From Bacillota bacterium (GTDB lineage Bacteria > Bacillota > Clostridia > Christensenellales > CAG-138), in assembly GCA_023459335.1 (NCBI GenBank), contig JAEWUO010000012.1, forward strand, positions 106 through 64,105: a stretch of DNA of 64,000 nt, given 5' to 3'. Each line of letters begins with the position of its first letter. Within the stretch, counting starts at the first letter, position 1. Made by a program: the position numbers and the translations under genes. Below the pieces are notes generated by a model. It searched no databases, was not told the origin of the DNA, and saw only the letters and a list, made by a program, of their open reading frames with translations. Shown piece after piece: positions 5,102 through 64,000 of this stretch.

Positions 5102-7352
5102 TAACTCTGGTATGATCTACTAAACATTCTTTTTTGCAAATTGTATTTATTACATTATTAATATAAATACTATCGCTTTCTAATAATTCTCTTTCTATTA
5201 GTGCAATATTATCAACAGGATTATAATTAGCGTCTGTTACAATTATATCCTCTCTTCTGCAAGTCCCTAAATCTGAAAAGGACCAAATTCTAATATCTTT
5301 AAATTGTCCCCTTCTATTTTTATAAATATCTAAAACTTGATTTGGCATTTCAGAAAAACCGTTAGTAAGTAACCCAGACAACATTTCCTTGTCTTTATCA
5401 GTAACCTTAGAAAGAATACCGCCTATATCAGCCTTGTCTACGATTGATTTTGAACCTCTGATATATCGGTAGTCTTTTATTCCTTCACTCTTGTCTGGCT
5501 CGCCGCTTATCTGAGTACCTGTTTCGACGAAACAATCGAGTTCTACGGCTAAATCTTTTAGTGCCGTAGATAACAGCATTAAAGCAACGTCTTCCCTTAT
5601 CTTAATATCTCTGAATTCTGTTAAAAGATTTGGAGATGAAAAAATATAATCAAAAATAATATTTCCGATATTTTCTTTAATTACTGTGCGGCGGCACAGG
5701 CTTTTAATTAAAGAAACTGATGGATCTGACATTTTTGTAATTATAAAATTATCTTTAAATTTTTCGACTATATTAATTGCAATATTAAGCCTTTCTTTTT
5801 CTTCTTCAGTTAAAAATTTTAATTTCAATAAAAGCTTTTCTTCATTAATGTCTGATAAATAAGCCAAAATTAAGGTTTGAATTTCGGAAATGTCTTGCTC
5901 TGTGGCTATATAAAAAACTTTTTCATTTGAACCTTCTTGAACCCAAGTTTTTAAACTAGAATTATATCTTATTGGGAATGCCATATAACAAGCATCTCCA
6001 ACCAAATTACGAGTATTATGTGTTACAATAAAGTCATTCATTTGAAATAGGTGCTCTTTATTATCAACATAAAAACATCTCATTTTTGTTTTTATATTGG
6101 TTTTTTCAATTTTTAGAATTTCGTTAAAATCTCTATAAATATCTATATACACATGATAATTAGCACTATGGTAATCATAATAATTTTTTACATAATACCC
6201 GAAGGCTCTTGCTATTAACGTAATTTTATAAACATCATCTTCCTCACAAGAAATTGTTGTAGAGCAATTGAGATACTTTAGGTCGTTTATAAATAGTTCG
6301 TAGCTACTATCTAATTCTAAAAAGTCTAACATCTCTTGGGTGTCAAAGTTTTTATAAATCCCGTTTCCAATTGGGATTTTATAAAATTTAAAGCTATCAA
6401 TATCTTCTGAGGCTTTAAAAATGTCTTCTATGGTTGCAGTAGAAAGTTGTTTATTTCTACCGTAATAGAATGACCATAAATGTTCACCACAGCATTCAGC
6501 TATTCTGCCATCAGAGAAAAATATCCTATAAATAGTTTTCTCATTTTTTTGTGGATAAACACCAAGAACTTCGGTTAATTCTCCTTGTCTGTCGAATAGG
6601 TATTCACCTATAACTATTTCGTCAGCCCTTTTAAATCCTTCAGCTGTAGGTATTAGTGTATTATCTGGTATAGCTTTTCCAATACCTGAGCCACCAGACT
6701 TTATATACATTTTCCCTTTGCGGCCGCCCCTAGTAACAGCATTAAAAAATTGTCCTTGTAATGGTGAACCAACCTCTGGATTTAATTTCAATTCTTCTAC
6801 TAAATCTGTTAATCCTTCAAATATAGAGACAGGTTCAAGAGACTCATTTTGAAGATTACTATATTTACTTTCTAGTGAAACTAAATCATTTTTGTAGATT
6901 TTCATTATATCCTCTATTTTGTAATCATCAAATCTACTATTAATCTCTAATGAATTATCAGCAGTTAAATCTTCACAATAAATATTATTAGTATTGAACC
7001 CCATAGATTTTAAATCTTGAATTAATTTAATCTTTTTAAATTTTTCATATGCTGAATTGAAACTAGTTTCGGATGCATACTCAAAAATTTCATTAAGAAT
7101 AGCTACACCATTTTGCTTTTCAAAAGAACCTTTAATTCTTTCATCAAGAACTATTTGATTTATTACTTGAGGTACAGCAATCTTTTCAGCACCTTCAATA
7201 TAAGCATTATATAGTGCGGCGAAGATTTTTTTATGTACTATATTTGAAAATTCTGTATGACATAAGCAAACCTTACTTGAATCAAAGATCTTTAGATTTA
7301 ACATTAAAGCACCTAATATGCTCATGGCCGCTTGGTTCTCTAATAATAGCAT
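5034..7352 (-). CDS. dnaB: DnaB-like replicative helicase precursor containing an intein
   Basis: N-terminal AAMSILGALML. The Walker A GGSGIGK is interrupted and resumes with T after ...VTHN. C-terminal YKNRRGQ. Confidence 0.85.
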   Translation of the reverse strand: MLLLENQAAMSILGALMLNLKIFDSSKVCLCHTEFSNIVHKKIFAALYNAYIEGAEKIAVPQVINQIVLDERIKGSFEKQNGVAILNEIFEYASETSFNSAYEKFKKIKLIQDLKSMGFNTNNIYCEDLTADNSLEINSRFDDYKIEDIMKIYKNDLVSLESKYSNLQNESLEPVSIFEGLTDLVEELKLNPEVGSPLQGQFFNAVTRGGRKGKMYIKSGGSGIGKAIPDNTLIPTAEGFKRADEIVIGEYLFDRQGELTEVLGVYPQKNEKTIYRIFFSDGRIAECCGEHLWSFYYGRNKQLSTATIEDIFKASEDIDSFKFYKIPIGNGIYKNFDTQEMLDFLELDSSYELFINDLKYLNCSTTISCEEDDVYKITLIARAFGYYVKNYYDYHSANYHVYIDIYRDFNEILKIEKTNIKTKMRCFYVDNKEHLFQMNDFIVTHNTRNLVGDACYMAFPIRYNSSLKTWVQEGSNEKVFYIATEQDISEIQTLILAYLSDINEEKLLLKLKFLTEEEKERLNIAINIVEKFKDNFIITKMSDPSVSLIKSLCRRTVIKENIGNIIFDYIFSSPNLLTEFRDIKIREDVALMLLSTALKDLAVELDCFVETGTQISGEPDKSEGIKDYRYIRGSKSIVDKADIGGILSKVTDKDKEMLSGLLTNGFSEMPNQVLDIYKNRRGQFKDIRIWSFSDLGTCRREDIIVTDANYNPVDNIALIERELLESDSIYINNVINTICKKECLVDHTRVIDKMVEKSLESKAERNYEFVGI
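6015..6674 (-). mobile_element. Intein (220 aa, no recognisable endonuclease domain) in the DnaB P-loop, with a class-3-like signature
   Basis: Starts with Ala (GK|AIPDNTLIPT) and ends ...NDFIVTHN|T. Block B is CCGEHLW, block F has Cys (MRCFYVDN), and +1 is Thr. Confidence 0.8.
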
Positions 7353-7360
7353 TTATTTCA

Positions 7361-7930
7361 TTACTCCATTTCTGATATTTTTATTTTCTTCTTATTCCTT
7401 TTTGAAGAATAGGCATAATGTAAAGAAGGATTTGTTTTTATAATTTCTCTCTTTTTCTCAACATATTCAGCAATTTCTTTTTCTATATTTATTTTTTTAT
7501 ATTCATTAGAACTATAATGTCTTTTTGCCTCTTCATATACATATGGAATTATACCTATTGTCCCATTAGCTTTTTCTTTATTTCCTTTTTTGATTTCATA
7601 AAAATATTTTAAAGTTAAATACATTCCACGATATGTATAACCTTTAGCTATCAGTTTATTTGCTTGAAAAAAGCAGGCTTCTAATACAGGAATTCCAAAT
7701 AAATCCGCAACATAGTAAAAAAACAAATCTTTATCAGCACCCATTTTTTCACTTAACTCTCTTATTTCTTTTGCAGTTTTATTATCAAAAATCTTTTCAC
7801 CATTCTCAATAATCTTATTTAAACTACCTAAGCTAATTTCAAAATTCCTGACTGTTGCAGCTTTATTCCTGGTTTCTCTATAGAAGAGAAGAATTCTCTT
7901 CTTCTCTTCATCTGTAAAATTTTTTGACAT
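7361..7930 (-). CDS. hypothetical protein (N-terminal HTH-like segment)
   Basis: 189-aa ORF directly downstream of promoter 7962-7990. RNKAATVRNFEISLGSLNKII is HTH-like. Confidence 0.45.
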   Translation of the reverse strand: MSKNFTDEEKKRILLFYRETRNKAATVRNFEISLGSLNKIIENGEKIFDNKTAKEIRELSEKMGADKDLFFYYVADLFGIPVLEACFFQANKLIAKGYTYRGMYLTLKYFYEIKKGNKEKANGTIGIIPYVYEEAKRHYSSNEYKKINIEKEIAEYVEKKREIIKTNPSLHYAYSSKRNKKKIKISEME

Positions 7931-7961
7931 AATAATAATTCAACCCCTTTCTTATATTATA

Positions 7962-7990
7962 ATTATATCATATTTTGCGAAAAAAGTCAA
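7962..7990 (-). promoter_or_regulatory. phage consensus promoter
   Basis: Reverse complement gives TTGACT (7985-7990), a 17-bp spacer and TATAAT (7962-7967). Confidence 0.7.
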
Positions 7991-8395
7991 TTATATTTCA
8001 TCAAGGTATTCCGCCGCAGTTGCAGTAAATGAGCGTTCACCTTGTTTTAGTTGAATTTTTCCAAATATTTTGGAATATTCATTTGATTTTGATAATTGAT
8101 TTAATAATTTCAAACCAGAGCGATTTCTAAATAGTTGAGAGTCAGCCTGCTTAATATCTCCGTCAAATATAATTTTACTCCCCTCGCCGCAACGTCCAAG
8201 AAGTAATTTCATATGCTCTTCGGTTATATTTTGAGCTTCATTTATTAAAATCGTTGAATTATTAAACGAACGCCCTCTAACCGAAGAAATAGGGACAATC
8301 TCTAAAGACTCTTCTGAAATTAATCTATTTATATGGTCAATTCCAACTATATCTACTAAAGGTCCAGCTTGACCTATTAATTTCGATATTATATC
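7991..8395 (-). CDS. phoH: PIN-PhoH (YlaK-like) ATPase, exon 2
   Basis: DIISKL...ILINEAQN (Walker B-like)...IIFDGDIKQADS continues the PhoH consensus after GFLPG. Confidence 0.75.
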   Translation of the reverse strand, partial: DIISKLIGQAGPLVDIVGIDHINRLISEESLEIVPISSVRGRSFNNSTILINEAQNITEEHMKLLLGRCGEGSKIIFDGDIKQADSQLFRNRSGLKLLNQLSKSNEYSKIFGKIQLKQGERSFTATAAEYLDEI

Positions 8396-9571
8396 CATTT
8401 ATCCTATAGATTTCTAAATAGGATAGACTATATCTTATTTGCTTTATTTAGATTTAGATTTAAGATTTTTATAAAATAAGTTTTTTCTATCTAAAAAGAT
8501 TGTAGCATCACTATATAAATACTCTAATATTTTTAAACAAATTATATTACCCTTCCATCTACAGAAATAAGCGTTTGCTTTAAAAATGCTATTTGTACTA
8601 TTTTTAGAAATAGCTTTATCAATTTCATTTTGAAAACTTTTTACGAAAAGTTCATTATATCCAGTAAAAGAAACCACAACACTATTACTGCTCTTGTCAA
8701 TATAAATAGAGCCATCTCCATCTAACAAACCTCTTAAATAATGTCTACGTAAATGCTCTGGAATAAGGTTTATTTGAATGTCTTCTAAAGAGTAAGTTTT
8801 ATTTGGAATAATTTCATATTTCCTTAAATCTTCACACATTTTTCTACTATAAACGGCAAATTGATATGAATGCTTTTTATCTCTTTTATCATAGGTTAAT
8901 TTATTATCACTACCAACAATTTTTTGTATTTTTTCTAATAATTCTCTATCTGATTCTTTTAAACAAATCCCCCAACAGGCTAAAGCGTTCCCATTTTTAT
9001 TATTTTTCACATAACCATCAGTTTTTAACAGTCCCACAATATAAGCTTGTTCTTCTGTTGTTATTTCATTAAAAAAATCTTCTTTCAAGTAATGGTTAAT
9101 TTTTTTACTTTTTGTTTTTTCTATATTGAGTTCTTTCATAATTCTTCTTACTGTATTTTGATGACAGTTTATTTTTTCACCTATTTTTTTAAATGAATAG
9201 AATTCATTGTTCATTTTTATAACTATTTCCAATTCTTCTTGAGTTAAAACTCTTTTCTTCATTTTAATAATCACCTCCTTTTAATAAAATTTACTTATAT
9301 AAATCTAAATCTAAGTATTAAAACAAATCTTTGCACTTCGGATTTAAAAAATCCTACTCTACTATTATAATTACCTATAATTTCGATAGTCGTTGAACCT
9401 TGCTCTTTATTTTTAAAGAACCTCGGCTGCGGATTGAACAATCTTTTGATTTTTTACTATACCTTAATAATTAGTTAAGCCACAATAATATCGCTATTAT
9501 TGTTTAGTATCAAAAGCTCTAAGCTCTTCCCCGTCAATTCACAAAGTTTTAACCCAGCCATTTAATATCTA
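8396..9571 (-). mobile_element. Group I intron with LAGLIDADG ORF, splitting the PhoH-like gene
   Basis: Exon 1 ends ...GFLPG (ggt, U last). The intron ends ...AAATG (G last) directly before GAT ATA (DIISK). Shares sequence boxes with the DnaE intron. Confidence 0.7.
8444..9274 (-). CDS. LAGLIDADG homing endonuclease (double motif) with N-terminal HTH
   Basis: YIVGLLKTDGYV and YLRGLLDGDGSI motifs. Located inside the intron. Confidence 0.8.
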   Translation of the reverse strand: MIIKMKKRVLTQEELEIVIKMNNEFYSFKKIGEKINCHQNTVRRIMKELNIEKTKSKKINHYLKEDFFNEITTEEQAYIVGLLKTDGYVKNNKNGNALACWGICLKESDRELLEKIQKIVGSDNKLTYDKRDKKHSYQFAVYSRKMCEDLRKYEIIPNKTYSLEDIQINLIPEHLRRHYLRGLLDGDGSIYIDKSSNSVVVSFTGYNELFVKSFQNEIDKAISKNSTNSIFKANAYFCRWKGNIICLKILEYLYSDATIFLDRKNLFYKNLKSKSK

Positions 9572-10384
9572 ACCGGGTAAGAAGCCTAGCTCCATAGCAT
9601 TTTCCGTATATGCATTATTAGGAATATAAATAATCTTTTTCCCTTTCTTTTCATATTCTTGTAAAGCATAGTTTAAAGAAATAAATGATTTTCCTTTTCC
9701 AAAGCCGCCGCTTACACTAATTATTGTGATGTCTTCATCACTTAATAAATCAAAATAAAATAATTGTTCTAGAGATTTTGGCTTTACCGTATTACAAAAT
9801 GAATTTTTTATAAAATTTTTATAATTTTTAGAATTAATTGTTATAGGTTCACCATTTTTTATTTTAAAAACACTATGTTCAACGCCTTCGGCTTTTAGAA
9901 TTAGAAATTCATTATTGTAAATTTCTAAATCTCTTGGGATTTCCCCTTTCATAAGATCACCATATAGAGTATCACATTCTTCCATAGGACCATTAAATTC
10001 AACAACTCCAGAGTGGATTTCATTAAAAGAGAATTTTCCAGTTTTTATACCAAAAATATTAGCCTTCAAAGACAAACATAAATCGTTTGTTATAATAATT
10101 GAGTTGTTGATATCTGCTTTTGCAATTTCAATTATTTCATTATCTACGGTTCTTGTAGACTCGAAAAATTCTAAATCGCCAAAACTAATTTCTGTGCGAT
10201 ATTTTTCTATTTGTGTCGCAGCACGTCTAGCTGACATTGCCACCTCTCTATTTTGACTATCTTTTAATTTTTCTAATTCGTGAATTACCCCGTATGGAAT
10301 AACTATTGTAGATAAATCTTTTTGTCTTGTAAAAAAAGATGGATAATCTAATAATACATTTGTATCTATTACTTTTACTGTCAT
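9572..10384 (-). CDS. phoH: PIN-PhoH (YlaK-like) ATPase, exon 1 (PIN domain plus Walker A)
   Basis: VIDTNVLLD (PIN), VSGGFGKGKS (P-loop), ends ELGFLPG. Confidence 0.75.
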
Positions 10385-10404
10385 TTTTAAACTCCTTTGT
10401 TTAA

Positions 10405-10442
10405 TTATAAAATAAAACCCCTAGTTTGTAGACTAGGGGTTT
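10405..10442 (-). terminator. rho-independent terminator
   Basis: Hairpin AAACCCCTAGT/ACTAGGGGTTT followed by a T-rich tract on the minus strand. Confidence 0.7.
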
Positions 10443-10446
10443 ATAG

Positions 10447-11454
10447 TTATACTATCCCCTTTATTTTAATAAGGGTCTCTTTTAGTTTATCTTTATCGCT
10501 CTCAACTAAGTGAGAAAATTTTATGTCTTCTTTTTGGAATACTTCTCTCAATATGTTTGTAAATTGCTCTGTAATTTCCTTGTCACTAGAATATTTGACA
10601 AAAAGACTTTTCGCCTCAGTCAACATTGAATCAAAACTCTGTTCAGAATAAAAATTACTATTACTCTCTTCAGCGATACCGCCACCGCCGGCCGCAATTT
10701 GAGCATCCACAGCATCATTAACTGCAGTTAAAAAATTCTCATAAGAAAATTCTATACCCTTTTTAATGTAGTGATATCTTGAGCCAGCCCAGAATGTTGG
10801 TGTCTCCCTAAAGAACAACAATGGTTTTTCGTTTGGACGCCTGTGAATATAGCATATGTTATCTACTAACTTATTTACGATATCAAATGGTTTATCTTGC
10901 AATGACGGTTTTATCTGGTATATCGGTTCGACTGTTTCTTTTGAGCCATTTTGTTCAGCTTTGGCTTGAGCCGCCGCTGTTGCTTCTTTATTTATTTTTG
11001 TCTGACTGTGTGTAACAAAATTAATACCATATCCAGCATTAGCTAAGTCTGAAAGTGTTGATCTAAACTCTTCTTCAGACAAAGAATAGCCTTGTCCATA
11101 TGGAATATCACCTATTTTTGTGACAGAATGATCGTTCATTACTTTTGCCAATACATACTTCCAAAGAATATCTACTGTATCTATGGCAATAGTTGCATAC
11201 TTCTCCTTCAGTTCTGGCATAAGACACAACTGTTTTTTGATTGATATAAAATCCTCCCAATTGTGAATAGGAACAACCATTATATTATCAAGAGCATTAT
11301 AGCCGGGTTCACACGCAAGTAATAAACTCTTTGGAAATTTTGTTACTAGGGTTGTCTTTCCTATTTTTGGCAGACCATAAAATAGATTGTATTTTCCCTC
11401 GGTAGTTTTAGTTATTCGTCTTGGTGTTAATTCTTTTAAATTTACAAATGCCAT
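10447..11454 (-). CDS. P-loop ATPase (Sak4/AAA_24-like recombination-associated)
   Basis: YGLPKIGKTT (Walker A) and IAIDTVD (Walker B). Lies in the replication/recombination module. Confidence 0.55.
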   Translation of the reverse strand: MAFVNLKELTPRRITKTTEGKYNLFYGLPKIGKTTLVTKFPKSLLLACEPGYNALDNIMVVPIHNWEDFISIKKQLCLMPELKEKYATIAIDTVDILWKYVLAKVMNDHSVTKIGDIPYGQGYSLSEEEFRSTLSDLANAGYGINFVTHSQTKINKEATAAAQAKAEQNGSKETVEPIYQIKPSLQDKPFDIVNKLVDNICYIHRRPNEKPLLFFRETPTFWAGSRYHYIKKGIEFSYENFLTAVNDAVDAQIAAGGGGIAEESNSNFYSEQSFDSMLTEAKSLFVKYSSDKEITEQFTNILREVFQKEDIKFSHLVESDKDKLKETLIKIKGIV

Positions 11455-11484
11455 TAATCTAAACTCCTCCTTATTAAATAATGT

Positions 11485-11521
11485 TAAAATTAGTCGAACC
11501 TACAATTTTATAGGTTCGACT
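11485..11521 (-). terminator. rho-independent terminator
   Basis: Hairpin AGTCGAACCTA/TAGGTTCGACT plus a T-rich tail on the minus strand. Confidence 0.6.
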
Positions 11522-11533
11522 TTGAATTAGATT

Positions 11534-57693: not shown

Positions 57694-57695
57694 CA

Positions 57696-58373
57696 TTGGA
57701 AGTAAAGCTAAGGAGCATAACAGGGCTAAAAAATGCCTTGGAAAGCCTATTTATCTCAAATAGAAACGAGGCGAAATTTGAAGATATAAGTAAGCTATGG
57801 GATAAAGAGAATAAAACAAAACAAGAATTAGAAGAGCTTGACGGCTATATGAGAACTCTTTTTAAGTGGGGATTAAAACACCCTACAATGCTAAGGTTTA
57901 TAAATATTACATTTAAAATAGACGGACTACATCGTGGAGCCCAAGACGACTTAGATGCCCACGCATATAGAATGCATAACAAAATTATTCGCTCTTCAAC
58001 TAGAACGAATAAGTTTGATGTTGAAGTATCAGATTGGTATAAAGACAAAATTTTGTTTCCAGAGCAGGTTTTAGACTTGCCAGAAAATGTAACCTTCAAC
58101 AGTAAAGATTATGTTAAGACACCGTATGGTTACGTTTTAAAAGAGCTTGCAAATAACAGAGATGTTTTGCGAGGTCTTTATCCCTTAGGAATTCCATCAA
58201 ATTGTCTTTTTGAAATGTGTTTACCAGAGTTTGCACATATATACTCACAAAGATACGAATTGACAGCGGCGGCACCAGAGCTGCAAGCCGCCGTAGAAAT
58301 GATGTTAAAACTAATAAATGAAAAACTACCCCTAGTAGATAGGGAATATCTATTGGAATTAAATAAATACTAA
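57696..58373 (+). CDS. hypothetical protein (only a weak ThyX-like pattern)
   Basis: TTG start behind GGAGG. ITFKIDGLHRGAQDDLDAH...IIRSSTR loosely resembles the ThyX RHR...SxR region. Confidence 0.35.
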   Translation: MEVKLRSITGLKNALESLFISNRNEAKFEDISKLWDKENKTKQELEELDGYMRTLFKWGLKHPTMLRFINITFKIDGLHRGAQDDLDAHAYRMHNKIIRSSTRTNKFDVEVSDWYKDKILFPEQVLDLPENVTFNSKDYVKTPYGYVLKELANNRDVLRGLYPLGIPSNCLFEMCLPEFAHIYSQRYELTAAAPELQAAVEMMLKLINEKLPLVDREYLLELNKY

Positions 58374-58440
58374 GGAGGTTTTTACAATAGAAACAAATGA
58401 TATTATAATAAGTGATTTTACAAATGGTGGAACAGTTACT

Positions 58441-58746
58441 ATGATTGGAGTCGCTTTCAAAGACTCTTCAACTGGAGTTATGCAAGTGCGATTTCCAAAC
58501 TATCAAACATTTGCGGCCGCAGATGTAACTGGTTTAACTACTATATGTAGATTAAAAACCAGTTTAGCTGAAACGGCTTATAGAGATTTATTGGTGAAGC
58601 TATGGTTAACACCACCAGTTGTTAACGATATAAATGATATAAGTGCTGGTGCACAGGGAGCTCGAGCAGTCTGGAAAAACAAGTGGCTCGATCCAAATAT
58701 TACAGACATCATTGGAGATGTTAATCATACAATAACTGTATTTTAA
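58441..58746 (+). CDS. hypothetical protein
   Basis: 101-aa ORF. The frame is also open upstream to the RBS at 58374. Confidence 0.45.
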   Translation: MIGVAFKDSSTGVMQVRFPNYQTFAAADVTGLTTICRLKTSLAETAYRDLLVKLWLTPPVVNDINDISAGAQGARAVWKNKWLDPNITDIIGDVNHTITVF

Positions 58747-58748
58747 AA

Positions 58749-58790
58749 ATAGCCTGCAAATTACAACAATTTGCAGGCTATTGATTTTTT
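58749..58790 (+). terminator. rho-independent terminator overlapping the next -35 box
   Basis: AGCCTGCAAATT/AATTTGCAGGCT hairpin followed by TGATTTTTT. Confidence 0.7.
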
Positions 58791-58809
58791 CTAAGAAGTG
58801 TGATATAAT
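58781..58809 (+). promoter_or_regulatory. phage consensus promoter (TTGATT)
   Basis: TTGATT-17-TATAAT followed by TATATTATAGTAAAA. Confidence 0.7.
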
Positions 58810-58838
58810 TATATTATAGTAAAAAAGGAGATGAGAAG

Positions 58839-59510
58839 ATGAATAGATTATTTATAACTGGAGACTTACATTGTCCACTAGATATAGAGAAGTTAGAGAT
58901 TTTTAATAATAACAATGAACTTGATGAAACTGACATTCTTATTATCTTTGGCGATGCCGGCTTGCTATGGGATGATAATGATGAGAGAAAAGAATGGATT
59001 AAAAAAATTGAAAACTATCCATTCACAACTTTTGTAGTTGCTGGTAATCATGAAAATTACGATATGATTGAAAGGTTACCAAAAGTCTTGAAATATGGGG
59101 CGGCCGCAAGAAAAGTTCACTCAAAACTGTTTTATGATGTTAGGGGTTCAGTTTATAATTTCAATGGAAGAAAATGCCTAACAGTCTCTGGTGGAAACTC
59201 AATTGACAAAGAGAGACGCACAATAGGAGTTAGTTGGTGGCCGCAAGAACAAATAACTCTTAATGATGTAGATATGGCAAAAAGAAGCCTTGGTCTTTAT
59301 AATAATAAAGTTGACTATATTCTCACTCATGTTGGAACAAGAAATGTTGTTGAGAGCTTTGGATTTACTCCAGATAGTTGTGTTCTTGCTATGGATGAAA
59401 TTCTTCGTGATGTTATTTATAAGCATCATTACTTTGGACACTATCACTTAGATGAGAATGTTTCAAAGAAACAAACCATTTTATACGATAATTTTGTTGA
59501 ATTAAATTGA
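58839..59510 (+). CDS. calcineurin-like metallophosphoesterase
   Basis: FITGDLHCP, IIFGDAG, AGNHEN, LTHVG, FGHYH. Confidence 0.75.
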   Translation: MNRLFITGDLHCPLDIEKLEIFNNNNELDETDILIIFGDAGLLWDDNDERKEWIKKIENYPFTTFVVAGNHENYDMIERLPKVLKYGAAARKVHSKLFYDVRGSVYNFNGRKCLTVSGGNSIDKERRTIGVSWWPQEQITLNDVDMAKRSLGLYNNKVDYILTHVGTRNVVESFGFTPDSCVLAMDEILRDVIYKHHYFGHYHLDENVSKKQTILYDNFVELN

Positions 59511-59535
59511 CTTCAATCAAATTATATGGTATAAT
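59507..59535 (+). promoter_or_regulatory. phage consensus promoter
   Basis: TTGACT-17-TATAAT. Confidence 0.7.
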
Positions 59536-59567
59536 TATATTATAGTAAAAGAAAGGAAGTATATTAA

Positions 59568-59768
59568 ATGAGAATTGACAGTTCATTTATAAAAAGAGTT
59601 TCATATAAAAAAGGAAAAAGATTGTTAAAACTGGAGATGATTAGTGGCACTTATGAATACTCTGAAGTGCCAAAGAGAATATTTAAGGATTTTTTAAAAG
59701 CGTCTTCGGCGGGAAAGTTCTATAATTCCTTTATAAAAGGAGAATTTCTAAGCCAGAGAATTCAATAG
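59568..59768 (+). CDS. KTSC-domain protein
   Basis: SSFIKRVSYKKGKRLLKLEMISGTYEYSEVPKRIFKDFLKASSAGKFYNSFIKG. Confidence 0.6.
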   Translation: MRIDSSFIKRVSYKKGKRLLKLEMISGTYEYSEVPKRIFKDFLKASSAGKFYNSFIKGEFLSQRIQ

Positions 59769-59787
59769 ATAGAATAGGAGAACACTT

Positions 59788-60537
59788 ATGTATTTTAAAG
59801 AATTAGAGACAAAATCAATAGTAAAACTAGACAAAAAACTGCCAGTTGTTGTTAGATTGGATGGAAAATCTTTTAGTAGCTTTACAAAAAATTTCAAAAA
59901 GCCTTTTTGTGAAGTGTTCTATCTATCAATGCTAGATACAACAAGATTGCTCTTAAAAAGTGATGTCCAAGGTATTGTCGGTGCTATAGTAGCATCAGAT
60001 GAAATATCTATTTTTCTACGGTCTTTTTATGATAGAAAAGGAAATAGGAGTGGATATTTTGATTTCAATGTTCAAAAACTAGCTTCAACTTTAGCTAGTA
60101 GGGTTACGAGAATATTTAATACGTGTTTTAGAAAAAATGTTGAAATATTCTCTGAAAATAGTTATGATGATATAGAAAGAGTAAAAGCATTGACAGCTGC
60201 AATAGATATGGCTGAATTCGACTGTAGAAGTTTTTCCTTAGATTCAACTGGCGAAATATATGACTACTTACTAAATAGACAATCAGACTTTAGCAGAAAT
60301 GCTATCAATATGGCCGCCAGAGAGGAATTTTCTCATAGTGAACTAGTCGGAGTTCCTAGTGCAGTTGTTGAAAACAGCCTTAATCACTTAGGTAAATTTG
60401 TTGAAGATAAATACAAGTTTGGAGCAATATTTATAAAAAGTGGCGGTGAAGTTTTTGAACTTCCATCTAAAAAAGTTTCAAAATTAAAGCAGAAAATAGG
60501 AATAATAAGTAAAGAATTTGAATATTGGGGTGAGTAA
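59788..60537 (+). CDS. Thg1-like protein (tRNA-His guanylyltransferase family, 3'-5' polymerase)
   Basis: FKELE...LPVVVRLDGKSFSSFTKNFKKPF...ASDEISIFL match the Thg1/TLP N-terminal motifs. Confidence 0.65.
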   Translation: MYFKELETKSIVKLDKKLPVVVRLDGKSFSSFTKNFKKPFCEVFYLSMLDTTRLLLKSDVQGIVGAIVASDEISIFLRSFYDRKGNRSGYFDFNVQKLASTLASRVTRIFNTCFRKNVEIFSENSYDDIERVKALTAAIDMAEFDCRSFSLDSTGEIYDYLLNRQSDFSRNAINMAAREEFSHSELVGVPSAVVENSLNHLGKFVEDKYKFGAIFIKSGGEVFELPSKKVSKLKQKIGIISKEFEYWGE

Positions 60538-60540
60538 ATA

Positions 60541-60987
60541 ATGTATTATCAAATAAGAAGAGGAACATTTGAAACCAATAGTAGCTCAGTTCATTCACTC
60601 ACTTTGTGTAGTAAGTCTGATTATGAACGCTGGTCCTATGGAGAGTTATTTTATGAACCATATGGTAGAGGATTCGTGACATTAGAAGAGGTTGTAAATT
60701 CAGAAGAATTTGAAAAGACGGAAGTGTCTAAACATATTAAAGATAATCTTTCTCTATTTAAAGAAATGGCTTATGCTTATGAAGAGCTATCTTATGATGA
60801 TGATTATATGAGAATAATTAACAAAAGAAGCGAAGAGTTAAATAATACCATCAAAGACGAGATTAGAGACATGGAAGTTTATTCTATAGATTCTTTTTTT
60901 GCAAGAAATGATTATGAAACTTTTATTGAATCGAAAAATATAGATAGTGTTAATGTAGTTGCATTTGGCTATTTTGGACGTGATTAG
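60541..60987 (+). CDS. hypothetical protein
   Basis: 148-aa ORF, closely coupled to the upstream gene. Confidence 0.45.
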   Translation: MYYQIRRGTFETNSSSVHSLTLCSKSDYERWSYGELFYEPYGRGFVTLEEVVNSEEFEKTEVSKHIKDNLSLFKEMAYAYEELSYDDDYMRIINKRSEELNNTIKDEIRDMEVYSIDSFFARNDYETFIESKNIDSVNVVAFGYFGRD

Positions 60988-61002
60988 AAAGGAAAGAGAT
61001 TA

Positions 61003-61893
61003 TTGATGATAGGAAAGTACAAAAATGGTAATTATAAAGTGGCAATTATGCCAGATGGAACAAAAATACGAGCAATTCAAGATGGAACAATTCCAAATCC
61101 AGATTTCCCAGAAAATATGGATGTAAAAATAACCAACTATTGTGATATTGGATGTAGTTTTTGCTATGAAAATTCTACAATAAATGGGTGTCATGGAGCA
61201 ATATTAAATCTACCATTTATTAAATCATTGAAACCTTTTACTGAAATGGCTATTGGCGGTGGCGATCCAATGAGTCACCCACAGTTGAAAGAATTTTTAA
61301 TTGAACTAAAAGAACAGAAAGTTATCGCAAATATAACTGTAAATCAAAAAACATTTGAGAATAAGTATTCTCAAATTAAGGAATTAATTAATAAAGGATT
61401 AATCTATGGCGTTGGTATTTCACTAGTTAATCCTTCTTATAACTTCATTAATTTGGTAAAAACTATTCCTAATGCTGTTATCCATGTAATTAATGGATTA
61501 ATTACAAAAGAGCAACTAGCGAAGTTATCAAATCATAACTTAAAAATATTAGTTCTTGGATATAAATCTAAAGGAAGGGGTTATAAATTCATCGTAGAAG
61601 AAAACGAATTTATATCAAAAAATCAGCATTATTTAAAAAATAATTTAACTAAAATTTCTAAACAATTTAGTGTTTTTAGTTTTGATAATTTGGGAATTGA
61701 GCAGTTGGATGCTTTAGCTCTCATTCCTAAAGAAGAAATTCCAAAGTATTATATGGGTGATGACGGTAAGTTCACAATGTATATAGATCTTGTGAAAAAA
61801 GAATATGCAAAAAACTCAATTTCAGAAGAGCGATATGATTTGAGCGATTTATCAACAGTAGAAGAAATTTTTGCTAAAATAAAAGAATTATAA
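61003..61893 (+). CDS. radical SAM protein
   Basis: NYCDIGCSFCY (CxxxCxxC) and GGGDP. Confidence 0.7.
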   Translation: MMIGKYKNGNYKVAIMPDGTKIRAIQDGTIPNPDFPENMDVKITNYCDIGCSFCYENSTINGCHGAILNLPFIKSLKPFTEMAIGGGDPMSHPQLKEFLIELKEQKVIANITVNQKTFENKYSQIKELINKGLIYGVGISLVNPSYNFINLVKTIPNAVIHVINGLITKEQLAKLSNHNLKILVLGYKSKGRGYKFIVEENEFISKNQHYLKNNLTKISKQFSVFSFDNLGIEQLDALALIPKEEIPKYYMGDDGKFTMYIDLVKKEYAKNSISEERYDLSDLSTVEEIFAKIKEL

Positions 61894-61901
61894 TATAAGT
61901 C

Positions 61902-61924
61902 GCCGCATTATATAATTATGCGGC
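61902..61924 (+). terminator. GC-rich hairpin (weak terminator)
   Basis: GCCGCAT...ATGCGGC. The T tract is poor. Confidence 0.45.
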
Positions 61925-61932
61925 TGCTTATA

Positions 61933-61961
61933 TTGATTTTAATTGTTTTTTATAGTATAAT
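61933..61961 (+). promoter_or_regulatory. phage consensus promoter (TTGATT; TTAATATAGAAAG variant)
   Basis: TTGATT-17-TATAAT. Confidence 0.65.
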
Positions 61962-62008
61962 TAATATAGAAAGAAAAAAGGGGTTGGAAGAATGAGAAAT
62001 GTTGGGTA

Positions 62009-62527
62009 ATTAAACTTAGAAAAGTCGGATTTATTATTGGGAGATTTATGCCATTACATAATGGACATATAGAAATGATCAATTCGGCGGCAAAGCAAGT
62101 AGATGAGCTTATTGTGTTAGTTGGATCTATGGGTGCTCCCGTTGGAGAAAGAAACCCATACTCAATACAAGAAAGATTAAAATGGTTAAATGAATGTAAT
62201 GATTTTTGGGAAAAAGATAAAATTACTTTTATTCCAATATTTGATTTGACAAATGAGAATGACTCTAGTTTAGAATGGGGCAACTACTTATATAATACAG
62301 TTACAAAAATTACAAATTGCGAACTTTTAACATACTTCACAAGCGAAAGTGAAGAGAAAATGATAGAGTGGTTTAGCAATAATAAAAAACTCAATATTAT
62401 TTATTTTGAACGATTTTCTAACATTAGTGCTACCAAGATTAGGGAATCGATAAATGGAGATGGACGATATTTCCTAAATAATTGTACAGAAAATGTTATT
62501 AAATATATTTTAAAAGAGGCTTGGTAG
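62009..62527 (+). CDS. nucleotidyltransferase of the NMNAT/NadR (HxGH) family; a non-AUG (ATT) start is proposed
   Basis: KVGFIIGRFMPLHNGH is the conserved N-terminal motif. Half of it lies upstream of the first ATG (62048), in an open frame with no ATG, GTG or TTG. Confidence 0.6.
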   Translation: MKLRKVGFIIGRFMPLHNGHIEMINSAAKQVDELIVLVGSMGAPVGERNPYSIQERLKWLNECNDFWEKDKITFIPIFDLTNENDSSLEWGNYLYNTVTKITNCELLTYFTSESEEKMIEWFSNNKKLNIIYFERFSNISATKIRESINGDGRYFLNNCTENVIKYILKEAW

Positions 62528-62549
62528 TAATGGGGCATATGAGAAGTTA

Positions 62550-62578
62550 TTGATTTTTTTCAAACTATATGTTATAAT
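62550..62578 (+). promoter_or_regulatory. phage consensus promoter (TTGATT)
   Basis: TTGATT-17-TATAAT. Confidence 0.65.
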
Positions 62579-62609
62579 TATAATATAATAAAAAGAAAGA
62601 AGTGGTTTT

Positions 62610-62996
62610 ATGCTAAATAAAAAAGTAATGTATCTCCAAAGTAAAATAATGAAAATAAAGTTAATAATTGAAGAGTTAAAAACAACAAAAACTCTTTCAC
62701 TAACCAAAGAAAATATATTAAAAGAAAATTTGCTACTGCTATTAAACCAAAGTTTAGACTTCTCAAATAGGTTGTATTCAAGTCCGTTATTTATTATGCT
62801 TAGAATAACAAAGGCTAAATTCAATTTAGCTCAAGACTTTAGGGTTGATGTTAGATTTGCATTTATTGACAGCATCAATAAAATTTTATCTTATTCAGCG
62901 GCAGGAATAAGACTAAATAGAACGCATTTAATCTCAATGATTGAAACTAATATTTTATTAGCTGAAAAAGTATTGACTAAAATATATAGTATGTAG
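62610..62996 (+). CDS. hypothetical protein
   Basis: 128-aa ORF behind the promoter. Confidence 0.45.
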   Translation: MLNKKVMYLQSKIMKIKLIIEELKTTKTLSLTKENILKENLLLLLNQSLDFSNRLYSSPLFIMLRITKAKFNLAQDFRVDVRFAFIDSINKILSYSAAGIRLNRTHLISMIETNILLAEKVLTKIYSM

Positions 62997-62999
62997 TAA

Positions 63000-63028
63000 T
63001 TGACTTTGATTCAATTGTATGTTATAAT
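63000..63028 (+). promoter_or_regulatory. phage consensus promoter
   Basis: TTGACT-17-TATAAT. Confidence 0.7.
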
Positions 63029-63060
63029 TATAATATAATAAAAGAAAGAAGTGATTTTAA

Positions 63061-63396
63061 ATGGGCGTTAATATAAGTGCTAAAAATTTAGTTGAATTAA
63101 ATGAGATTTATTATAGACAGCAGTTAAATCTCCTCTTAGGGTGGCAAGACAAAGACGTAGTTGAAGAAATGTTTTTTCAACTACAAGACGCCGCAAGAGC
63201 TGGGAACAATACTGCAACAGTTTTCATAACAAGTTCCATAGGAAGCCAAGAAATTGGCTATAATGATATGTGCAAAGTGGCAGAATGCGTTGAACGTATT
63301 TTCATTAATGGTGGTATAAAAGTTTTCAAAGAATATTCTAAAAATTATTATTGGGAGGAAAAGCCAATAATAAAACTGAATTGCTCTTGGTCTTAA
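63061..63396 (+). CDS. hypothetical protein
   Basis: 111-aa ORF with the RBS AAAGAAGTGA. Confidence 0.45.
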   Translation: MGVNISAKNLVELNEIYYRQQLNLLLGWQDKDVVEEMFFQLQDAARAGNNTATVFITSSIGSQEIGYNDMCKVAECVERIFINGGIKVFKEYSKNYYWEEKPIIKLNCSWS

Positions 63397-63400
63397 TATC

Positions 63401-64000
63401 ATGATAAATAAATATTATATAAGAGTTTGTTCAGAGCCGACATTATTTGAGTCTTTGGCGGCCGCCTTAATAAGGATATCGGGGACTGGGCGGCCGCAAA
63501 TAATACCAGTAATTACAGATACTGTAGAAGCTTTAAAACTAAAAAAAGAAGATTGTTATATAGAACTCTCATCCTCTGGTGTAAATTATAAAAATATATT
63601 TACAATAAAAACAATATTATCAGAAGTATATTCGATAATGTTAGATTTAGGTTCTGATATAAATTATAATATCTTAAATATAATTCAAAAAGTAGAGGAG
63701 AAAAAATTAGAAGGACTTGAAACAAGGTTTAAAAATTTTTGTAAATGCAAAAGAATGAGAACTCGTGATTTCGATGTATTTTTTAATCAATTAATTGATT
63801 TTGGAGAATGTATTCTACTAGAGCAATTAGAATTGTGTGTCCTAACTGATTGTTTTAAGGAGAAGATTAGTAAAGAGATAGAGAAAAACCTAGATGAGAA
63901 TTACGTTTTTTTTGATACATATATATCATTAGAATTAATAACTGAGGAATTAAAGAGATTTTCTAATTCTCTTATTCGATTTATTATTCTAAAAGTTGAG
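63401..64000 (+). CDS. hypothetical protein, partial (runs off the window end)
   Basis: By my own translation the frame is open for 200 codons from ATG 63401 to the window end. It is absent from the ORF track because there is no stop. Confidence 0.45.
   Translation, partial: MINKYYIRVCSEPTLFESLAAALIRISGTGRPQIIPVITDTVEALKLKKEDCYIELSSSGVNYKNIFTIKTILSEVYSIMLDLGSDINYNILNIIQKVEEKKLEGLETRFKNFCKCKRMRTRDFDVFFNQLIDFGECILLEQLELCVLTDCFKEKISKEIEKNLDENYVFFDTYISLELITEELKRFSNSLIRFIILKVE

What the first reader, a model, noticed from the sequence alone, without database searches (positions are those of the whole stretch)
6720..63497. Twelve exact GCGGCCGC octamers in an AT-rich window, mostly extended to GCGGCCGCAA(A/G) in the direction of transcription
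Exact sites start at 6720, 29468, 37954, 38461, 39256, 43484, 48413, 55347, 58513, 59100, 63458 and 63490. With roughly 15% G and 15% C, fewer than 0.1 such all-G/C octamers are expected in 64 kb. Nine of the 12 are followed by AA(A/G) on the sense strand of the local transcription unit; the minus-strand gene at 6720 reads GCGGCCGCAAAGG on its own strand. Near-copies (CGGCCGCAA or GCGGCCGAAAA) occur at about 3707, 18472, 38983 and 41508. The sites fall in promoter spacers, in non-coding DNA after the tRNA cluster, and in coding DNA in all three reading frames: AAA in GyrA-like EAAARY, GGR or SGR in DnaB and NrdG, RPQ in the last ORF. Selection therefore acts on the DNA or RNA rather than on the protein. 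Candidate roles are a binding site for a phage regulator or partition/packaging factor, a Chi-like or nicking signal, or a target or anti-target of a modification or defence system.
Basis: seen in the sequence. Interest (0 to 1): 0.75.

Follow-up and report, generated by a model that had tools for sequence, protein, structure and literature searches.

The report
Overlapping GCSGC pentamers, not NotI sites
The twelve NotI-like octamers are real, but they are overlapping pairs of a five-base palindrome, GC(G/C)GC, which this AT-rich phage and many relatives accumulate across their DNA, much like the "highly iterated palindromes" of cyanobacteria.

Summary
In detail: 12 exact GCGGCCGC at the stated coordinates, against 0.02 expected. 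The same sites occur in at least six independent assemblies.

The octamer is not the unit. The enriched word is the pentamer GCSGC:
- 135 sites against about 10 expected from base composition.
- 118 coding sites against 40 under a synonymous-codon shuffle.
- 11 non-coding sites against 1.

GCGC and CGCG are almost absent. Overlapping pentamers can therefore form only GCGGCGGC or its complement (23 copies) and GCGGCCGC (12). Pentamer statistics predict 6.4 NotI sites. Hexamer statistics predict 12.2.

The pressure acts on DNA:
- All three reading frames are enriched.
- Two synonymous positions co-vary to complete the word.
- Ala-Ala is the most over-represented dipeptide.
- The apparent GCWGC depletion occurs only in the Ala-Ala frame, so it is a by-product.

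Individual sites turn over at the neutral rate. The trait is patchy among related phages. It recurs in an unrelated TAG-recoded phage.

The closest known case is the "alternate HIP" GCsGC of Cyanothece PCC 7822. I infer a link to methylation or repair, but did not show it.

Three promoter spacers carry the octamer and may form a separate regulatory element. The AA(A/G) extension is weak.

The parts
1..64000 (.). Dispersed population of 135 GCSGC pentamers (GCGGC or GCCGC) in 99 clusters, about 2100 per Mb. This is the real enriched word. GCGC (1 copy) and CGCG (2 copies) are almost absent.
6720..6727 (-). GCGGCCGC in the DnaB_C helicase gene (5034-7352). Codons are AGG GGC GGC CGC AAA GGG = RGGRKG. 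In the 80%-identical relative L010 the same peptide is written AGA GGT GGG CGA AAG GGG, with no motif.
29461..29489 (+). Promoter TTGACT-T-GCGGCCGC-AAATCTGA-TATAAT upstream of the DNA ligase gene. The octamer at 29468-29475 fills the spacer next to the -35 box. It is conserved in relatives L096 and L098 (about 92.6% identity).
37954..37961 (+). GCGGCCGC in the NrdG-like radical-SAM activase gene (37569-38033), read as xGC GGC CGC (FSGRKD).
38454..38482 (+). Second promoter of the same subclass, TTGACT-T-GCGGCCGC-AAATATAG-TATAAT, with the octamer at 38461-38468. It lies upstream of a 150-aa phosphatase-like gene.
38976..39004 (+). Third promoter of the subclass, with the near-copy GCGGCCGA at 38983-38990. 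It lies upstream of an unrelated 149-aa gene.
39256..39263 (+). GCGGCCGC as GCG GCC GCA (NAAANS) in ORF 39037-39486.
43484..43491 (+). GCGGCCGC as GCG GCC GCA (EAAARY) in GyrA (43160-45499). The orthologue in L011 reads HSASR at this position.
48413..48420 (+). GCGGCCGC as GCG GCC GCA (RAAAKT) in the DUF2828 gene (47960-49363).
55347..55354 (+). Non-coding GCGGCCGC downstream of the tRNA cluster. The local fold is no better than shuffled sequence (z -0.7). No Rfam match.
58513..58520 (+). GCGGCCGC as GCG GCC GCA (FAAADV) in ORF 58441-58746. It is followed by GA, not AA.
59100..59107 (+). GCGGCCGC as GCG GCC GCA (GAAARK) in the metallophosphatase gene (58839-59510).
63458..63497 (+). Two octamers 32 bases apart in the last ORF, which starts at 63401. 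They read LAAALI and TGRPQI. As RNA or single-stranded DNA they can pair (-22 kcal/mol, z -2.4).
50098..50139 (+). GCGGCGGC ... GCCGCCGC inverted repeat after gene 49357-50079. It forms a stable hairpin (z -4.1).
61901..61924 (+). CGCCGCAT ... ATGCGGC hairpin after gene 61003-61893, terminator-like (z -5.7).
20317..24800 (.). The only long gap without GCSGC (4.5 kb). It covers the TnpB (IS605-family) gene, small ORFs and most of an 844-aa tail-like gene. These may be recently acquired modules not yet enriched.
28829..29455 (+). Small methyltransferase candidate with an ITNPPY motif (amino-methyltransferase type, probably N6-adenine). It is the only methyltransferase-like gene seen and is not a C5-cytosine enzyme.

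Best explanation
The NotI octamers are overlapping pairs of a shorter, genome-wide enriched word, the degenerate palindrome GCSGC.

Shown:
- A DNA-level pressure raises GCSGC about 3-fold over a codon-aware expectation, and about 9-fold in the xGY-GGN context.
- The pressure acts in every reading frame and in non-coding DNA.
- It acts on the complete five-base word and on both orientations.
- It is strong enough to make Ala-Ala the most over-represented dipeptide.
- GCGC and CGCG are almost absent, presumably through restriction avoidance. Overlapping pentamers can therefore form only GCGGCGGC, GCCGCCGC and GCGGCCGC, which is why NotI sites appear.
- Individual sites are not conserved. They follow Poisson spacing and turn over at about the neutral rate. 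What is maintained is a density of about 1 per 0.5 kb.

Inferred:
- This is the same kind of phenomenon as the 'highly iterated palindromes' (HIPs) of cyanobacteria. In Cyanothece PCC 7822 the very same word, GCsGC, is the outlier and is accompanied by GCsGC-specific cytosine methyltransferases.
- The most likely mechanism is a process tied to a GCSGC-specific m5C methyltransferase, of the host or encoded in the unseen part of the phage genome. The process could be selection for a sufficient density of methylated marks, or a methylation-directed repair bias that preferentially fixes mutations creating the site.
- The patchy distribution among related phages, and the recurrence in an unrelated phage, point to a factor linked to the host.
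For: Unit and statistics:
- GCGGC/GCCGC are the top 5-mers (135 against 10.4). The octamer is fully predicted by its sub-words.
- GCGGCGGC and its complement occur 23 times. GCCGCGGC, which contains CGCG, occurs once.

Codon-aware null: GCSGC 118 against 40 (z 16). GCGC is 1 against 29 and CGCG is 2 against 21.

Not an avoidance by-product:
- With all avoided words capped at their observed counts, 74 GCSGC are expected against 118 observed.
- Frame-2 sites (xGC GGC) number 41 against 10-13 expected.
- GCWGC is depleted only in the Ala-Ala frame. In pooled relatives it is 54 against 125 there, and 26 against 25 in the other two frames. GCSGC is enriched 4- to 8-fold in those frames.

Whole-word dependence:
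- TGC, AGC, GGC and GCC are chosen over T-ending codons only before GGC (10:3, 9:4, 22:7, 7:2). This does not hold for xAY or xTY codons.
- GC_GC is the strongest context for a G or C third base (log-odds +2.2; +1.7 in enriched relatives; absent in non-enriched relatives).

Protein-level effect:
- Ala-Ala occurs 83 times against 31.7 expected and is the top dipeptide. PQ, CG and CR are also high.
- Orthologues in L011 often lack these AA or GG pairs.

Non-coding DNA: 11 sites against 1.06 expected.

Density, not position:
- Per-kb counts have mean 1.55 and variance 1.53.
- The site at 6720 is missing in L010.
- Third positions inside motifs differ at 6 of 35, against 14.3% background, in relatives of 92-93% identity.

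Distribution:
- The same signature appears in many DnaB-related phage contigs, whether or not they avoid GCGC. It is absent in others of similar relatedness.
- It is present in an unrelated TAG-recoded phage contig.

Precedent: Elhai 2015 (PMC4390886) reports GCsGC as an alternate HIP with cognate methyltransferases and HIP densities of 500-2500 per Mb. Here the density is 2100 per Mb.
Against: - No GCSGC-specific or any C5 methyltransferase was found in the 73 kb of this phage that I could read. The only candidate carries an NPPY motif and is of the adenine type. The host is unknown, so the defining HIP association is untested.
- The repair-ratchet model of Elhai is itself a hypothesis.
- One-step neighbours of the motif are not depleted. 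This rules out a simple Vsr-type T:G correction at any single position.
- Losses occur at about the neutral rate. I count 5 motif-destroying differences, where roughly 1.3 would be expected under stable per-site selection of the strength needed for the enrichment (small sample; the 1.3 is my own estimate). A plain mutation-selection equilibrium therefore fits poorly. A gain-biased or fluctuating process would be needed.
- In relatives such as L012 the pentamers are enriched but never overlap (no GCGGCGGC). I cannot explain this.
Confidence: 0.5

Rival explanations
1. Chi-like protective signal. GCGGC, read on one strand, is recognised by the host AddAB/RecBCD-type nuclease. The phage accumulates it in both orientations so that its linear DNA is spared from degradation.
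For: - The motif is GC-rich, dispersed, governed by density, and shows no positional conservation. This is what is expected of Chi.
- Known Firmicute Chi sequences contain GCGG: AGCGG in B. subtilis and GAAGCGG in S. aureus (my own knowledge; papers listed).
- On the + strand, GCCGC dominates to the left of 27 kb and GCGGC to the right. The switch coincides with the GC-skew minimum.
Against: - The orientation switch coincides exactly with the switch of gene direction.
- After codon-aware correction both orientations are enriched: 3.5x against 2.2x in the window, and 2.7x against 3.6x in relatives. There is no consistent polarity.
- The enriched set consists of symmetric words (GCSGC, GCCGGC, CGGCCG). 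This is typical of dimeric type II enzymes and methyltransferases, not of asymmetric single-strand recognition.
- The size of the enrichment is far above what I recall for Chi in phages.
Confidence: 0.15
2. Passive by-product. The phage avoids many restriction sites (GCGC, CGCG, GCWGC, GATC, Shine-Dalgarno-like GGAGG). Given its proteins and codon usage, the displaced G/C-ending codons pile up in the few permitted words.
For: - Many palindromes are depleted against the codon-aware null: GATC, GCGC, CGCG, CATG, GTAC, GANTC, WGGCCW and WCCGGW.
- A constrained shuffle that caps these words raises expected GCSGC from 40 to 74. It raises the coding octamers to 3-4 of the 7 observed and GGCGG to 38 of 67.
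Against: - GCWGC is not depleted in the two frames where it cannot be swapped for GCSGC. It is therefore not an avoided site, and the cap on it, which drives most of the effect, is circular.
- Capping only GCGC and CGCG has no effect (39.5 against 39.4).
- Relatives that do not avoid GCGC or CGCG show the same GCSGC excess (L011, L023, L028, L046-L050).
- Frame-2 and frame-3 sites, co-variation of two synonymous positions and the non-coding excess remain unexplained.
Confidence: 0.1
3. Specific binding site. GCGGCCGC(AAA) is an operator, or a packaging or partition site, for a phage protein.
For: - Three of 27 near-consensus promoters carry the octamer, or a 7-of-8 copy, at exactly the same place in the spacer, directly after TTGACTT. 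Their downstream genes are unrelated.
- The copy at 29468 is kept in two relatives of about 92.6% identity.
- The octamer count is about 1.9-fold above the pentamer-level expectation (12 against 6.4, Poisson p 0.03).
Against: - Nine of the 12 copies are inside genes with no positional logic. GCGGCGGC is commoner. The hexamer-level expectation equals the observation.
- The coding copy at 6720 is not conserved.
- The AAA tail changes to TAA in L098.
- No further copy of the promoter form occurs in the 73 kb seen.
- This reading can hold for at most the three promoter copies.
Confidence: 0.1
4. Recognition word of a phage DNA-metabolism enzyme that needs frequent sites, for example the DnaG-like primase at 3983-5101 or the phage gyrase. 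Selection would then keep about one site per kb per strand.
For: - The density per strand (about 1 per 0.95 kb) is of the order of Okazaki-fragment length. This comparison rests on my own knowledge.
- The phage encodes its own primase, helicase, Pol III alpha and gyrase.
Against: - Known primase recognition sites are trinucleotides and are not palindromic (my own knowledge).
- The trait is patchy among phages sharing the same replication module.
- It occurs in an unrelated TAG-recoded phage.
Confidence: 0.05

Closest known systems
Alternate highly iterated palindrome GCsGC of Cyanothece PCC 7822 (the HIP class; Elhai 2015, Life 5:921, PMC4390886)
   Same: - It is the identical word, GC[GC]GC.
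- It is an outlier among 5-mers.
- Its density lies in the HIP range (500-2500 per Mb; here about 2100).
- It is 100% G+C and palindromic.
- It occurs throughout the genome, not at special loci.
- Flanked forms of a type II-like core are favoured. Here 17 of 24 GGCC sit in CGGCCG and 12 in GCGGCCGC. This is formally like GATC inside GCGATCGC (HIP1).
   Different: - Here the genome is a roughly 160-kb AT-rich (30% G+C) phage of unknown host, not a cyanobacterium.
- The cognate GCsGC methyltransferase that defines the association in Cyanothece has not been found.
- The enrichment coexists with near-total avoidance of GCGC and CGCG.
- It visibly shifts dipeptide usage.
HIP1 (GCGATCGC) of cyanobacteria
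   Same: It is an eight-base palindrome of the form GC-(4-bp palindrome)-GC, many-fold over-represented in coding and non-coding DNA. It is linked, by hypothesis, to methyltransferases acting on the inner hexamer.
   Different: - HIP1 itself is the enriched unit (observed/expected 55-228).
- Here the octamer is explained by its pentamer and hexamer sub-words.
- GCGATCGC is absent from the window, and CGATCG occurs once.
Chi sites of AddAB/RecBCD
   Same: A short, GC-rich, dispersed word whose benefit depends on number and not on position.
   Different: Chi is asymmetric and strand-polar. No polarity beyond base composition was seen here.
Restriction-site avoidance in phages (here: total GCNGC avoidance in Staphylococcus phage K and Bacillus phage Tsamsa)
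   Same: The same family of words, GCNGC, is under DNA-level pressure strong enough to reshape Ala-Ala usage.
   Different: The sign is opposite. K and Tsamsa have 0-1 GCSGC per 50 kb and 0-2 Ala-Ala dipeptides where 31-71 are expected. This phage has 2.6 times the expected Ala-Ala.

Membership tests
Highly iterated palindromes (HIP class, including alternate HIP GCsGC) | Short GC-rich palindromic word | tested here: met
   GCSGC is a degenerate palindrome of 100% G+C.
Highly iterated palindromes (HIP class, including alternate HIP GCsGC) | Over-representation that is an outlier among words of the same length | tested here: met
   GCGGC and GCCGC are the top 5-mers by zero-order z (28 and 27). 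GCGGC is the top 5-mer against the codon-aware null (z 15.7). The next unrelated word has z 6.
Highly iterated palindromes (HIP class, including alternate HIP GCsGC) | Density of roughly 500-2500 copies per Mb, spread over the genome | tested here: met
   135 pentamers in 99 clusters over 64 kb gives 2100 and 1550 per Mb. Counts per kb are Poisson. The range is from PMC4390886.
Highly iterated palindromes (HIP class, including alternate HIP GCsGC) | Present in coding DNA irrespective of frame and in non-coding DNA | tested here: met
   All three frames are enriched. Non-coding DNA has 11 sites against 1.06 expected.
Highly iterated palindromes (HIP class, including alternate HIP GCsGC) | A methyltransferase of matching specificity encoded in the same genome | tested here: inconclusive
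   There is no C5 methyltransferase in the 73 kb readable for this phage. Only an NPPY-type candidate is present.
Chi-like nuclease-attenuating site | Asymmetric word with strand polarity relative to replication or DNA ends | tested here: not met
   Both orientations are enriched. The ratio differs in sign between the window and its relatives. The apparent switch at 27 kb coincides with the switch in gene direction.
Chi-like nuclease-attenuating site | Recognition by the host RecBCD/AddAB and excess in the host core genome | not testable with these tools
   The host is unknown. The best genome hits to the phage TnpB have only 49-54% identity.
Operator or specific protein-binding site | Fixed position relative to promoters or other landmarks | tested here: inconclusive
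   Three of 12 octamer-type sites sit at an identical spacer position in 3 of 27 promoters. The other sites have no positional logic.
Operator or specific protein-binding site | Site conservation above background in relatives | tested here: not met
   The coding site at 6720 is lost in L010. Third positions inside motifs differ at 17% against 14% background. Only the promoter copy at 29468 is kept.
By-product of restriction-site avoidance | The supposedly avoided alternative (GCWGC) is depleted in every reading frame | tested here: not met
   In pooled relatives GCWGC is depleted only in the Ala-Ala frame (54 against 125). In the other frames it is 26 against 25. The same holds in the window.
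Cloning, linker or assembly artefact (NotI) | Sites absent from independent assemblies or disrupting reading frames | tested here: not met
   The sequence is identical in independent ENA and Logan assemblies. The sites lie in frame within conserved proteins.

The most novel reading that the evidence does not exclude
A clade of large AT-rich phages, and at least one unrelated stop-codon-recoded phage, actively accumulates a restriction-site-like palindrome, GCSGC, under positive selection. It would serve as a methylated 'self' or repair-guiding mark, or as an anti-nuclease signal. This would be a viral counterpart of cyanobacterial HIPs. It would be strong enough to rewrite Ala-Ala and Gly-Gly usage in the phage's proteins, and the exact opposite of the GCNGC purge seen in phages K and Tsamsa.
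Probability: 0.2. Interest if true: 0.8.

Novelty: new member of a known kind. Interest (0 to 1): 0.55.

Why it matters
Phage genomes are known for purging short palindromes to escape restriction. Here the opposite occurs: a type II-like palindrome is accumulated several-fold, in every reading frame, and it shifts the amino-acid pairs the proteins use. This happens in a genome that simultaneously purges GCGC, CGCG, GATC and others.

The function and origin of highly iterated palindromes have been an open question for decades. Finding the same word (GCsGC) behaving this way in fast-evolving phages offers a tractable system. The trait is present in some close relatives and absent in others, so gains and losses can be dated. 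One can also test whether a methyltransferase, a repair bias or a nuclease drives it.

Practically, the finding warns that striking long palindromes in AT-rich genomes (here NotI sites) can be shadows of shorter enriched words combined with forbidden ones.

Tried and rejected
1. Vsr-type very-short-patch repair. One-transition neighbours (GTGGC, GCGGT, GCGAC) are not depleted. GCWGC is not depleted outside the Ala-Ala frame or in non-coding DNA.
2. GCWGC (TseI/BbvI-like) avoidance as the driver. Rejected by the frame analysis.
3. GCGC/CGCG avoidance as the driver. The constrained shuffle shows no effect, and relatives without this avoidance are equally enriched.
4. Translation-level codon-pair or tRNA effects. 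These are incompatible with enrichment of rare codons (CCG, CGC) in frames 2 and 3, with the antisense orientation, and with non-coding sites.
5. General clustering of G/C at third positions. Only the GC_GC context stands out, with GG_GG weaker.
6. Paired sites acting as hairpins. Spacing is Poisson. Only two intergenic pairs and one coding pair fold well.
7. Structured RNA. Rfam finds only tRNAs.
8. Host identification through TnpB (49-54% hits, one of them actually a phage contig) and through the phage HPr gene (only phage relatives returned). Both failed.
9. Sample accessions searched in the literature: nothing found.
10. Walking into the rest of the genome. The 77.7-kb contigs end about 0.6 kb beyond the window start. 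The 160-kb scaffold could not be read further with the permitted look-ups.
11. Close relatives in GenBank phages and IMG/VR: none.
12. A C5-methyltransferase motif scan of all 99 loci found only an M.HhaI-like gene in L019.

Full report
**1. Observation**

The window holds exactly 12 GCGGCCGC sites at the coordinates given. Dinucleotide-preserving shuffles give a mean of 0.02.

The window has about 30% G+C. Genes lie on the minus strand up to about 27.2 kb and on the plus strand after that. The GC-skew minimum falls at that point.

Nine of the 12 sites are followed by AA(A/G) on the local sense strand. The four near-copies exist.

By position, three sites are non-coding. Six are GCG GCC GCN (Ala-Ala-Ala). 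Two are xGC GGC CGC, and one is G CGG CCG C.

The sequence is not an artefact. Contigs from several independent ENA and Logan assemblies are 99.97-100% identical to the window.

**2. What the genome is**

It is an uncultivated phage. One 160.6-kb scaffold carries it. It has no close relative in GenBank phages or IMG/VR.

The window encodes a replication module resembling that of phage SPbeta. The module includes YorF- and YorH-like proteins, a DnaB-type helicase with an intein, a Toprim primase, RecJ, Pol III alpha and a UvrD-type helicase.

Other genes and elements in the window:
- GyrB/GyrA and NrdD/NrdG, interrupted by several homing endonucleases.
- An IS605-type TnpB.
- An RNA-repair set: two RNA ligases, Thg1 and a CCA-adding enzyme.
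- Eight tRNAs.

**3. The octamer is not the unit**

Other all-G/C octamers are as common or commoner. GCGGCGGC occurs 14 times and its complement GCCGCCGC 9 times.

Word statistics show that the excess sits at the pentamer level. GCGGC plus GCCGC gives 135 sites against 10.4 expected. One-base neighbours lie at 0.8-1.9x, apart from CCGGC at 3.2x.

Expected NotI sites, by Markov order:

| Level of statistics | Expected sites |
|---|---|
| Tetramers | 0.5 |
| Pentamers | 6.4 |
| Hexamers | 12.2 |
| Observed | 12 |

GCGC occurs once and CGCG twice, where about 30 of each are expected. Of the four possible overlaps GCSGCSGC, the one containing CGCG is therefore nearly absent (1 site). Only GCGGCGGC, its complement and GCGGCCGC remain.

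**4. Codon-aware tests**

I shuffled synonymous codons within genes as a null model. Results for coding DNA:

| Word | Observed | Expected |
|---|---|---|
| GCSGC | 118 | 40 (z 16) |
| GCGGCCGC | 7 | 0.7 |
| GCGGCGGC | 17 | 2.1 |
| GCWGC | 25 | 60 |
| GCGC | 1 | 29 |
| CGCG | 2 | 21 |

GATC, CATG, GTAC, GANTC and GGAGG-like words are also depleted. GCGGC, GGCGG and CGGCG are by far the most enriched words.

I then asked whether avoidance alone could push codons into GCSGC. A constrained shuffle capped every avoided word at its observed count. It predicts 74 GCSGC and 3-4 coding octamers.

Almost all of that rise comes from capping GCWGC. The frame analysis shows this cap is circular:
- In the window and in pooled relatives, GCWGC is depleted only in the Ala-Ala frame, where it is the synonymous alternative to GCSGC. 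Relatives show 54 against 125 there.
- In the other two frames GCWGC is not depleted (26 against 25).
- In those frames GCSGC is enriched 4- to 8-fold.

GCWGC depletion is therefore a consequence of GCSGC enrichment, not its cause.

**5. The whole word is favoured**

Codons TGY, AGY, GGN and GCN take a C ending when, and almost only when, the next codon is GGC. The counts are 10:3, 9:4, 22:7 and 7:2. Codons with A or T at the second position do not do this.

For the xGY-GGN pairs, the non-motif states keep roughly neutral proportions. The motif state is about 9-fold over-populated (my arithmetic).

GC_GC is the strongest context for a G or C third base in the window and in enriched relatives. 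It is absent from the top contexts of non-enriched relatives.

The effect reaches the proteins. Ala-Ala is the most over-represented dipeptide (83 against 31.7). PQ, CG and CR, which can encode the word in other frames, are also near the top. Many of these pairs are other residues in orthologues of relative L011.

Non-coding DNA (9.1 kb, tRNAs excluded) holds 11 sites against 1.06 expected. Among these:
- Five lie in three promoter spacers.
- Two form a terminator-like hairpin.

A second stable hairpin at 50090-50150 is built from GCGGCGGC and GCCGCCGC.

**6. Density, not position**

Counts per kb are Poisson (mean 1.55, variance 1.53). The only long gap (20.3-24.8 kb) covers TnpB and a tail-like gene.

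In a relative with 80% identical DnaB, the peptides under the motifs are conserved but the codons differ. The 6720 octamer is absent there.

In relatives of 92-93% nucleotide identity, 16 of 21 window sites are shared. Third-codon positions inside motifs differ at 6 of 35, against 14.3% elsewhere. There is therefore no detectable purifying selection on individual sites.

Under a simple equilibrium with per-site selection strong enough for a 9-fold excess, I would expect about 1.3 motif-destroying changes. I count 5. This is a small sample, but it leans towards a gain-biased or fluctuating process.

**7. Distribution among phages**

I fetched 78 loci through a DnaB alignment. Many show the same pair of signals: GCSGC at 2.5-4x and GCWGC at 0.3-0.6x. 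This holds whether or not they avoid GCGC and CGCG.

Others of similar relatedness show nothing. A few have purged GCNGC and Ala-Ala altogether.

A contig binned to a Gastranaerophilales genome was fetched because of a TnpB homologue. It proved to be a TAG-recoded phage with the same signature (34 against 10, all frames).

Staphylococcus phage K and Bacillus phage Tsamsa show the opposite extreme. They have 0-1 GCSGC, 0-1 GCWGC and 0-2 Ala-Ala dipeptides per 50 kb.

The trait is therefore labile and probably follows the host. This last step is inference.

**8. Comparison with what is known**

Elhai (2015, PMC4390886) described 'alternate HIPs' in cyanobacteria that lack HIP1. [quoted passage not shown] It is accompanied by two GCsGC-specific methyltransferases.

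HIPs occur at 500-2500 per Mb. Elhai proposes a G-m5C-directed mismatch-repair ratchet, or selection for mark density.

The word, the density (2100 per Mb), the frame independence and the preference for flanked cores all match. On the last point, 21 of 24 GGCC overlap a GCSGC. WGGCCW is 0 against 12.3 expected, and CGGCCG is 11 against 1.6.

The defining association with a cognate methyltransferase could not be tested. The readable 73 kb contains only a small NPPY-type (adenine-class) candidate at 28829-29455. The host is unknown.

**9. Rivals**

- A Chi-like signal is possible, but no polarity beyond composition was found.
- A pure avoidance by-product is largely refuted (sections 4 and 5).
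- A specific operator is tenable only for the three promoter copies. These share TTGACTTGCGGCCG(C/A)AAAT at an identical position and have unrelated downstream genes. One copy is conserved in 92-93% relatives, but with its A-tail changed.
- A primase or topoisomerase word is unlikely, given the patchy distribution.

**10. The AA(A/G) tail**

After a G/C run on the A-rich sense strand, AA follows in 27-36% of cases. Nine of 12 gives p between 0.0007 and 0.007. Counting the promoter family once gives p between 0.005 and 0.03.

In the six Ala-Ala-Ala copies, the first A is simply the third base of GCA. GCG at that position would create the forbidden CGCG. I regard the tail as mostly compositional.

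**11. Verdict**

The feature is a HIP-like, DNA-level enrichment of GCSGC, combined with strict avoidance of GCGC and CGCG.

The mechanism, methylation- or repair-linked, is inferred from the cyanobacterial precedent and remains unproven.

Noticed in passing
L013 (Bacillus phage Tsamsa, 100001-150000) and L014 (Staphylococcus phage K, 60001-110000): Both phages have essentially no GCNGC (0-1 GCSGC and 0-1 GCWGC per 50 kb). As a consequence they have 0 and 2 Ala-Ala dipeptides, where 71 and 31 are expected. Restriction avoidance has removed a dipeptide from their proteomes. Loci L035-L037 do the same.
   Followed up: partly
window, whole; for example 27227, 27411, 31886, 46501, 51330, 52070 (+) and 27041, 15890, 13065, 7990 (-): About 27 near-identical strong promoters of the form TTGACTT-N16-TATAAT. 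Most continue TATATTATAG. A four-member subclass continues AATAWTATAATAAAA, and three of those four have the GCGGCCG(C/A) spacer.
   Followed up: partly
window, whole: Context-dependent avoidance of GGCC and CCGG. WGGCCW is 0 against 12.3 and WCCGGW is 1 against 13.2 under the codon-aware null. Half-W flanks are about 0.5x. CGGCCG (11 against 1.6) and GCCGGC (14 against 1.5) are enriched. Two readings are possible: HaeI/BsaWI-like enzymes, or protection of the G/C-flanked forms by overlapping methylation.
   Followed up: partly
L016 (MOYD01000047.1, binned as Candidatus Gastranaerophilales): The contig reads as long ORFs (up to 1972 aa) only if TAG is translated. It is therefore a TAG-recoded phage fragment, not host chromosome. 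It carries a TnpB 49% identical to the window's and the same GCSGC excess.
   Followed up: partly
window 28829-29455 (+): A 208-aa protein with EPCCGEGHI and ITNPPY motifs (phrog_799 'DNA methyltransferase', E 4e-49). It is probably a small N6-adenine DNA methyltransferase. It lies just upstream of the first GCGGCCGC promoter. GATC and GANTC are only partly avoided in this genome.
   Followed up: partly
window 32163-37265, 39503-43110, 8444-10384, 1-1917: Heavy invasion by selfish elements. NrdD is split by a GIY-YIG gene, an intein and an HNH gene. GyrB lies in pieces around HNH/AP2 and GIY-YIG genes. PhoH is split by a LAGLIDADG gene. DnaB carries an intein. Pol III alpha is interrupted by a GIY-YIG gene in this strain but not in the 160-kb scaffold, which is why the 77.7-kb contigs end there.
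   Followed up: no
window 20286-21368 (-): An IS605-family TnpB gene (OrfB_IS605 plus a Cas12f-like TNB domain) lies inside the phage. It sits in the only 4.5-kb stretch that lacks GCSGC.
   Followed up: no
window 47960-62527 and L008: A cluster of RNA-repair and tRNA-maintenance genes. It includes a DUF2828 (TROVE/Ro-like) protein, a T4 Rnl1-like RNA ligase, a second RNA ligase, Thg1, a CTP-transferase-like protein, an HNH-fused CCA-adding enzyme and seven tRNAs.
   Followed up: no
L019 18107-19096 (+): A relative encodes a full-length close homologue of M.HhaI (E 5e-162, including the target-recognition region). Yet it still has almost no GCGC (2 against 11.7 expected).
   Followed up: no
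L012, L018, L019: These relatives are enriched in single GCSGC pentamers (for example 35 in 22 kb). They have no overlapping forms at all: no GCGGCGGC, and GGCC is purged. The window, by contrast, has 36 overlapping pairs. I cannot explain the difference.
   Followed up: no
window 26706-26951 (-): The phage encodes an HPr (PTS phosphocarrier) homologue. The database search returned only phage relatives of 86-100% identity and no bacterial sequences.
   Followed up: partly
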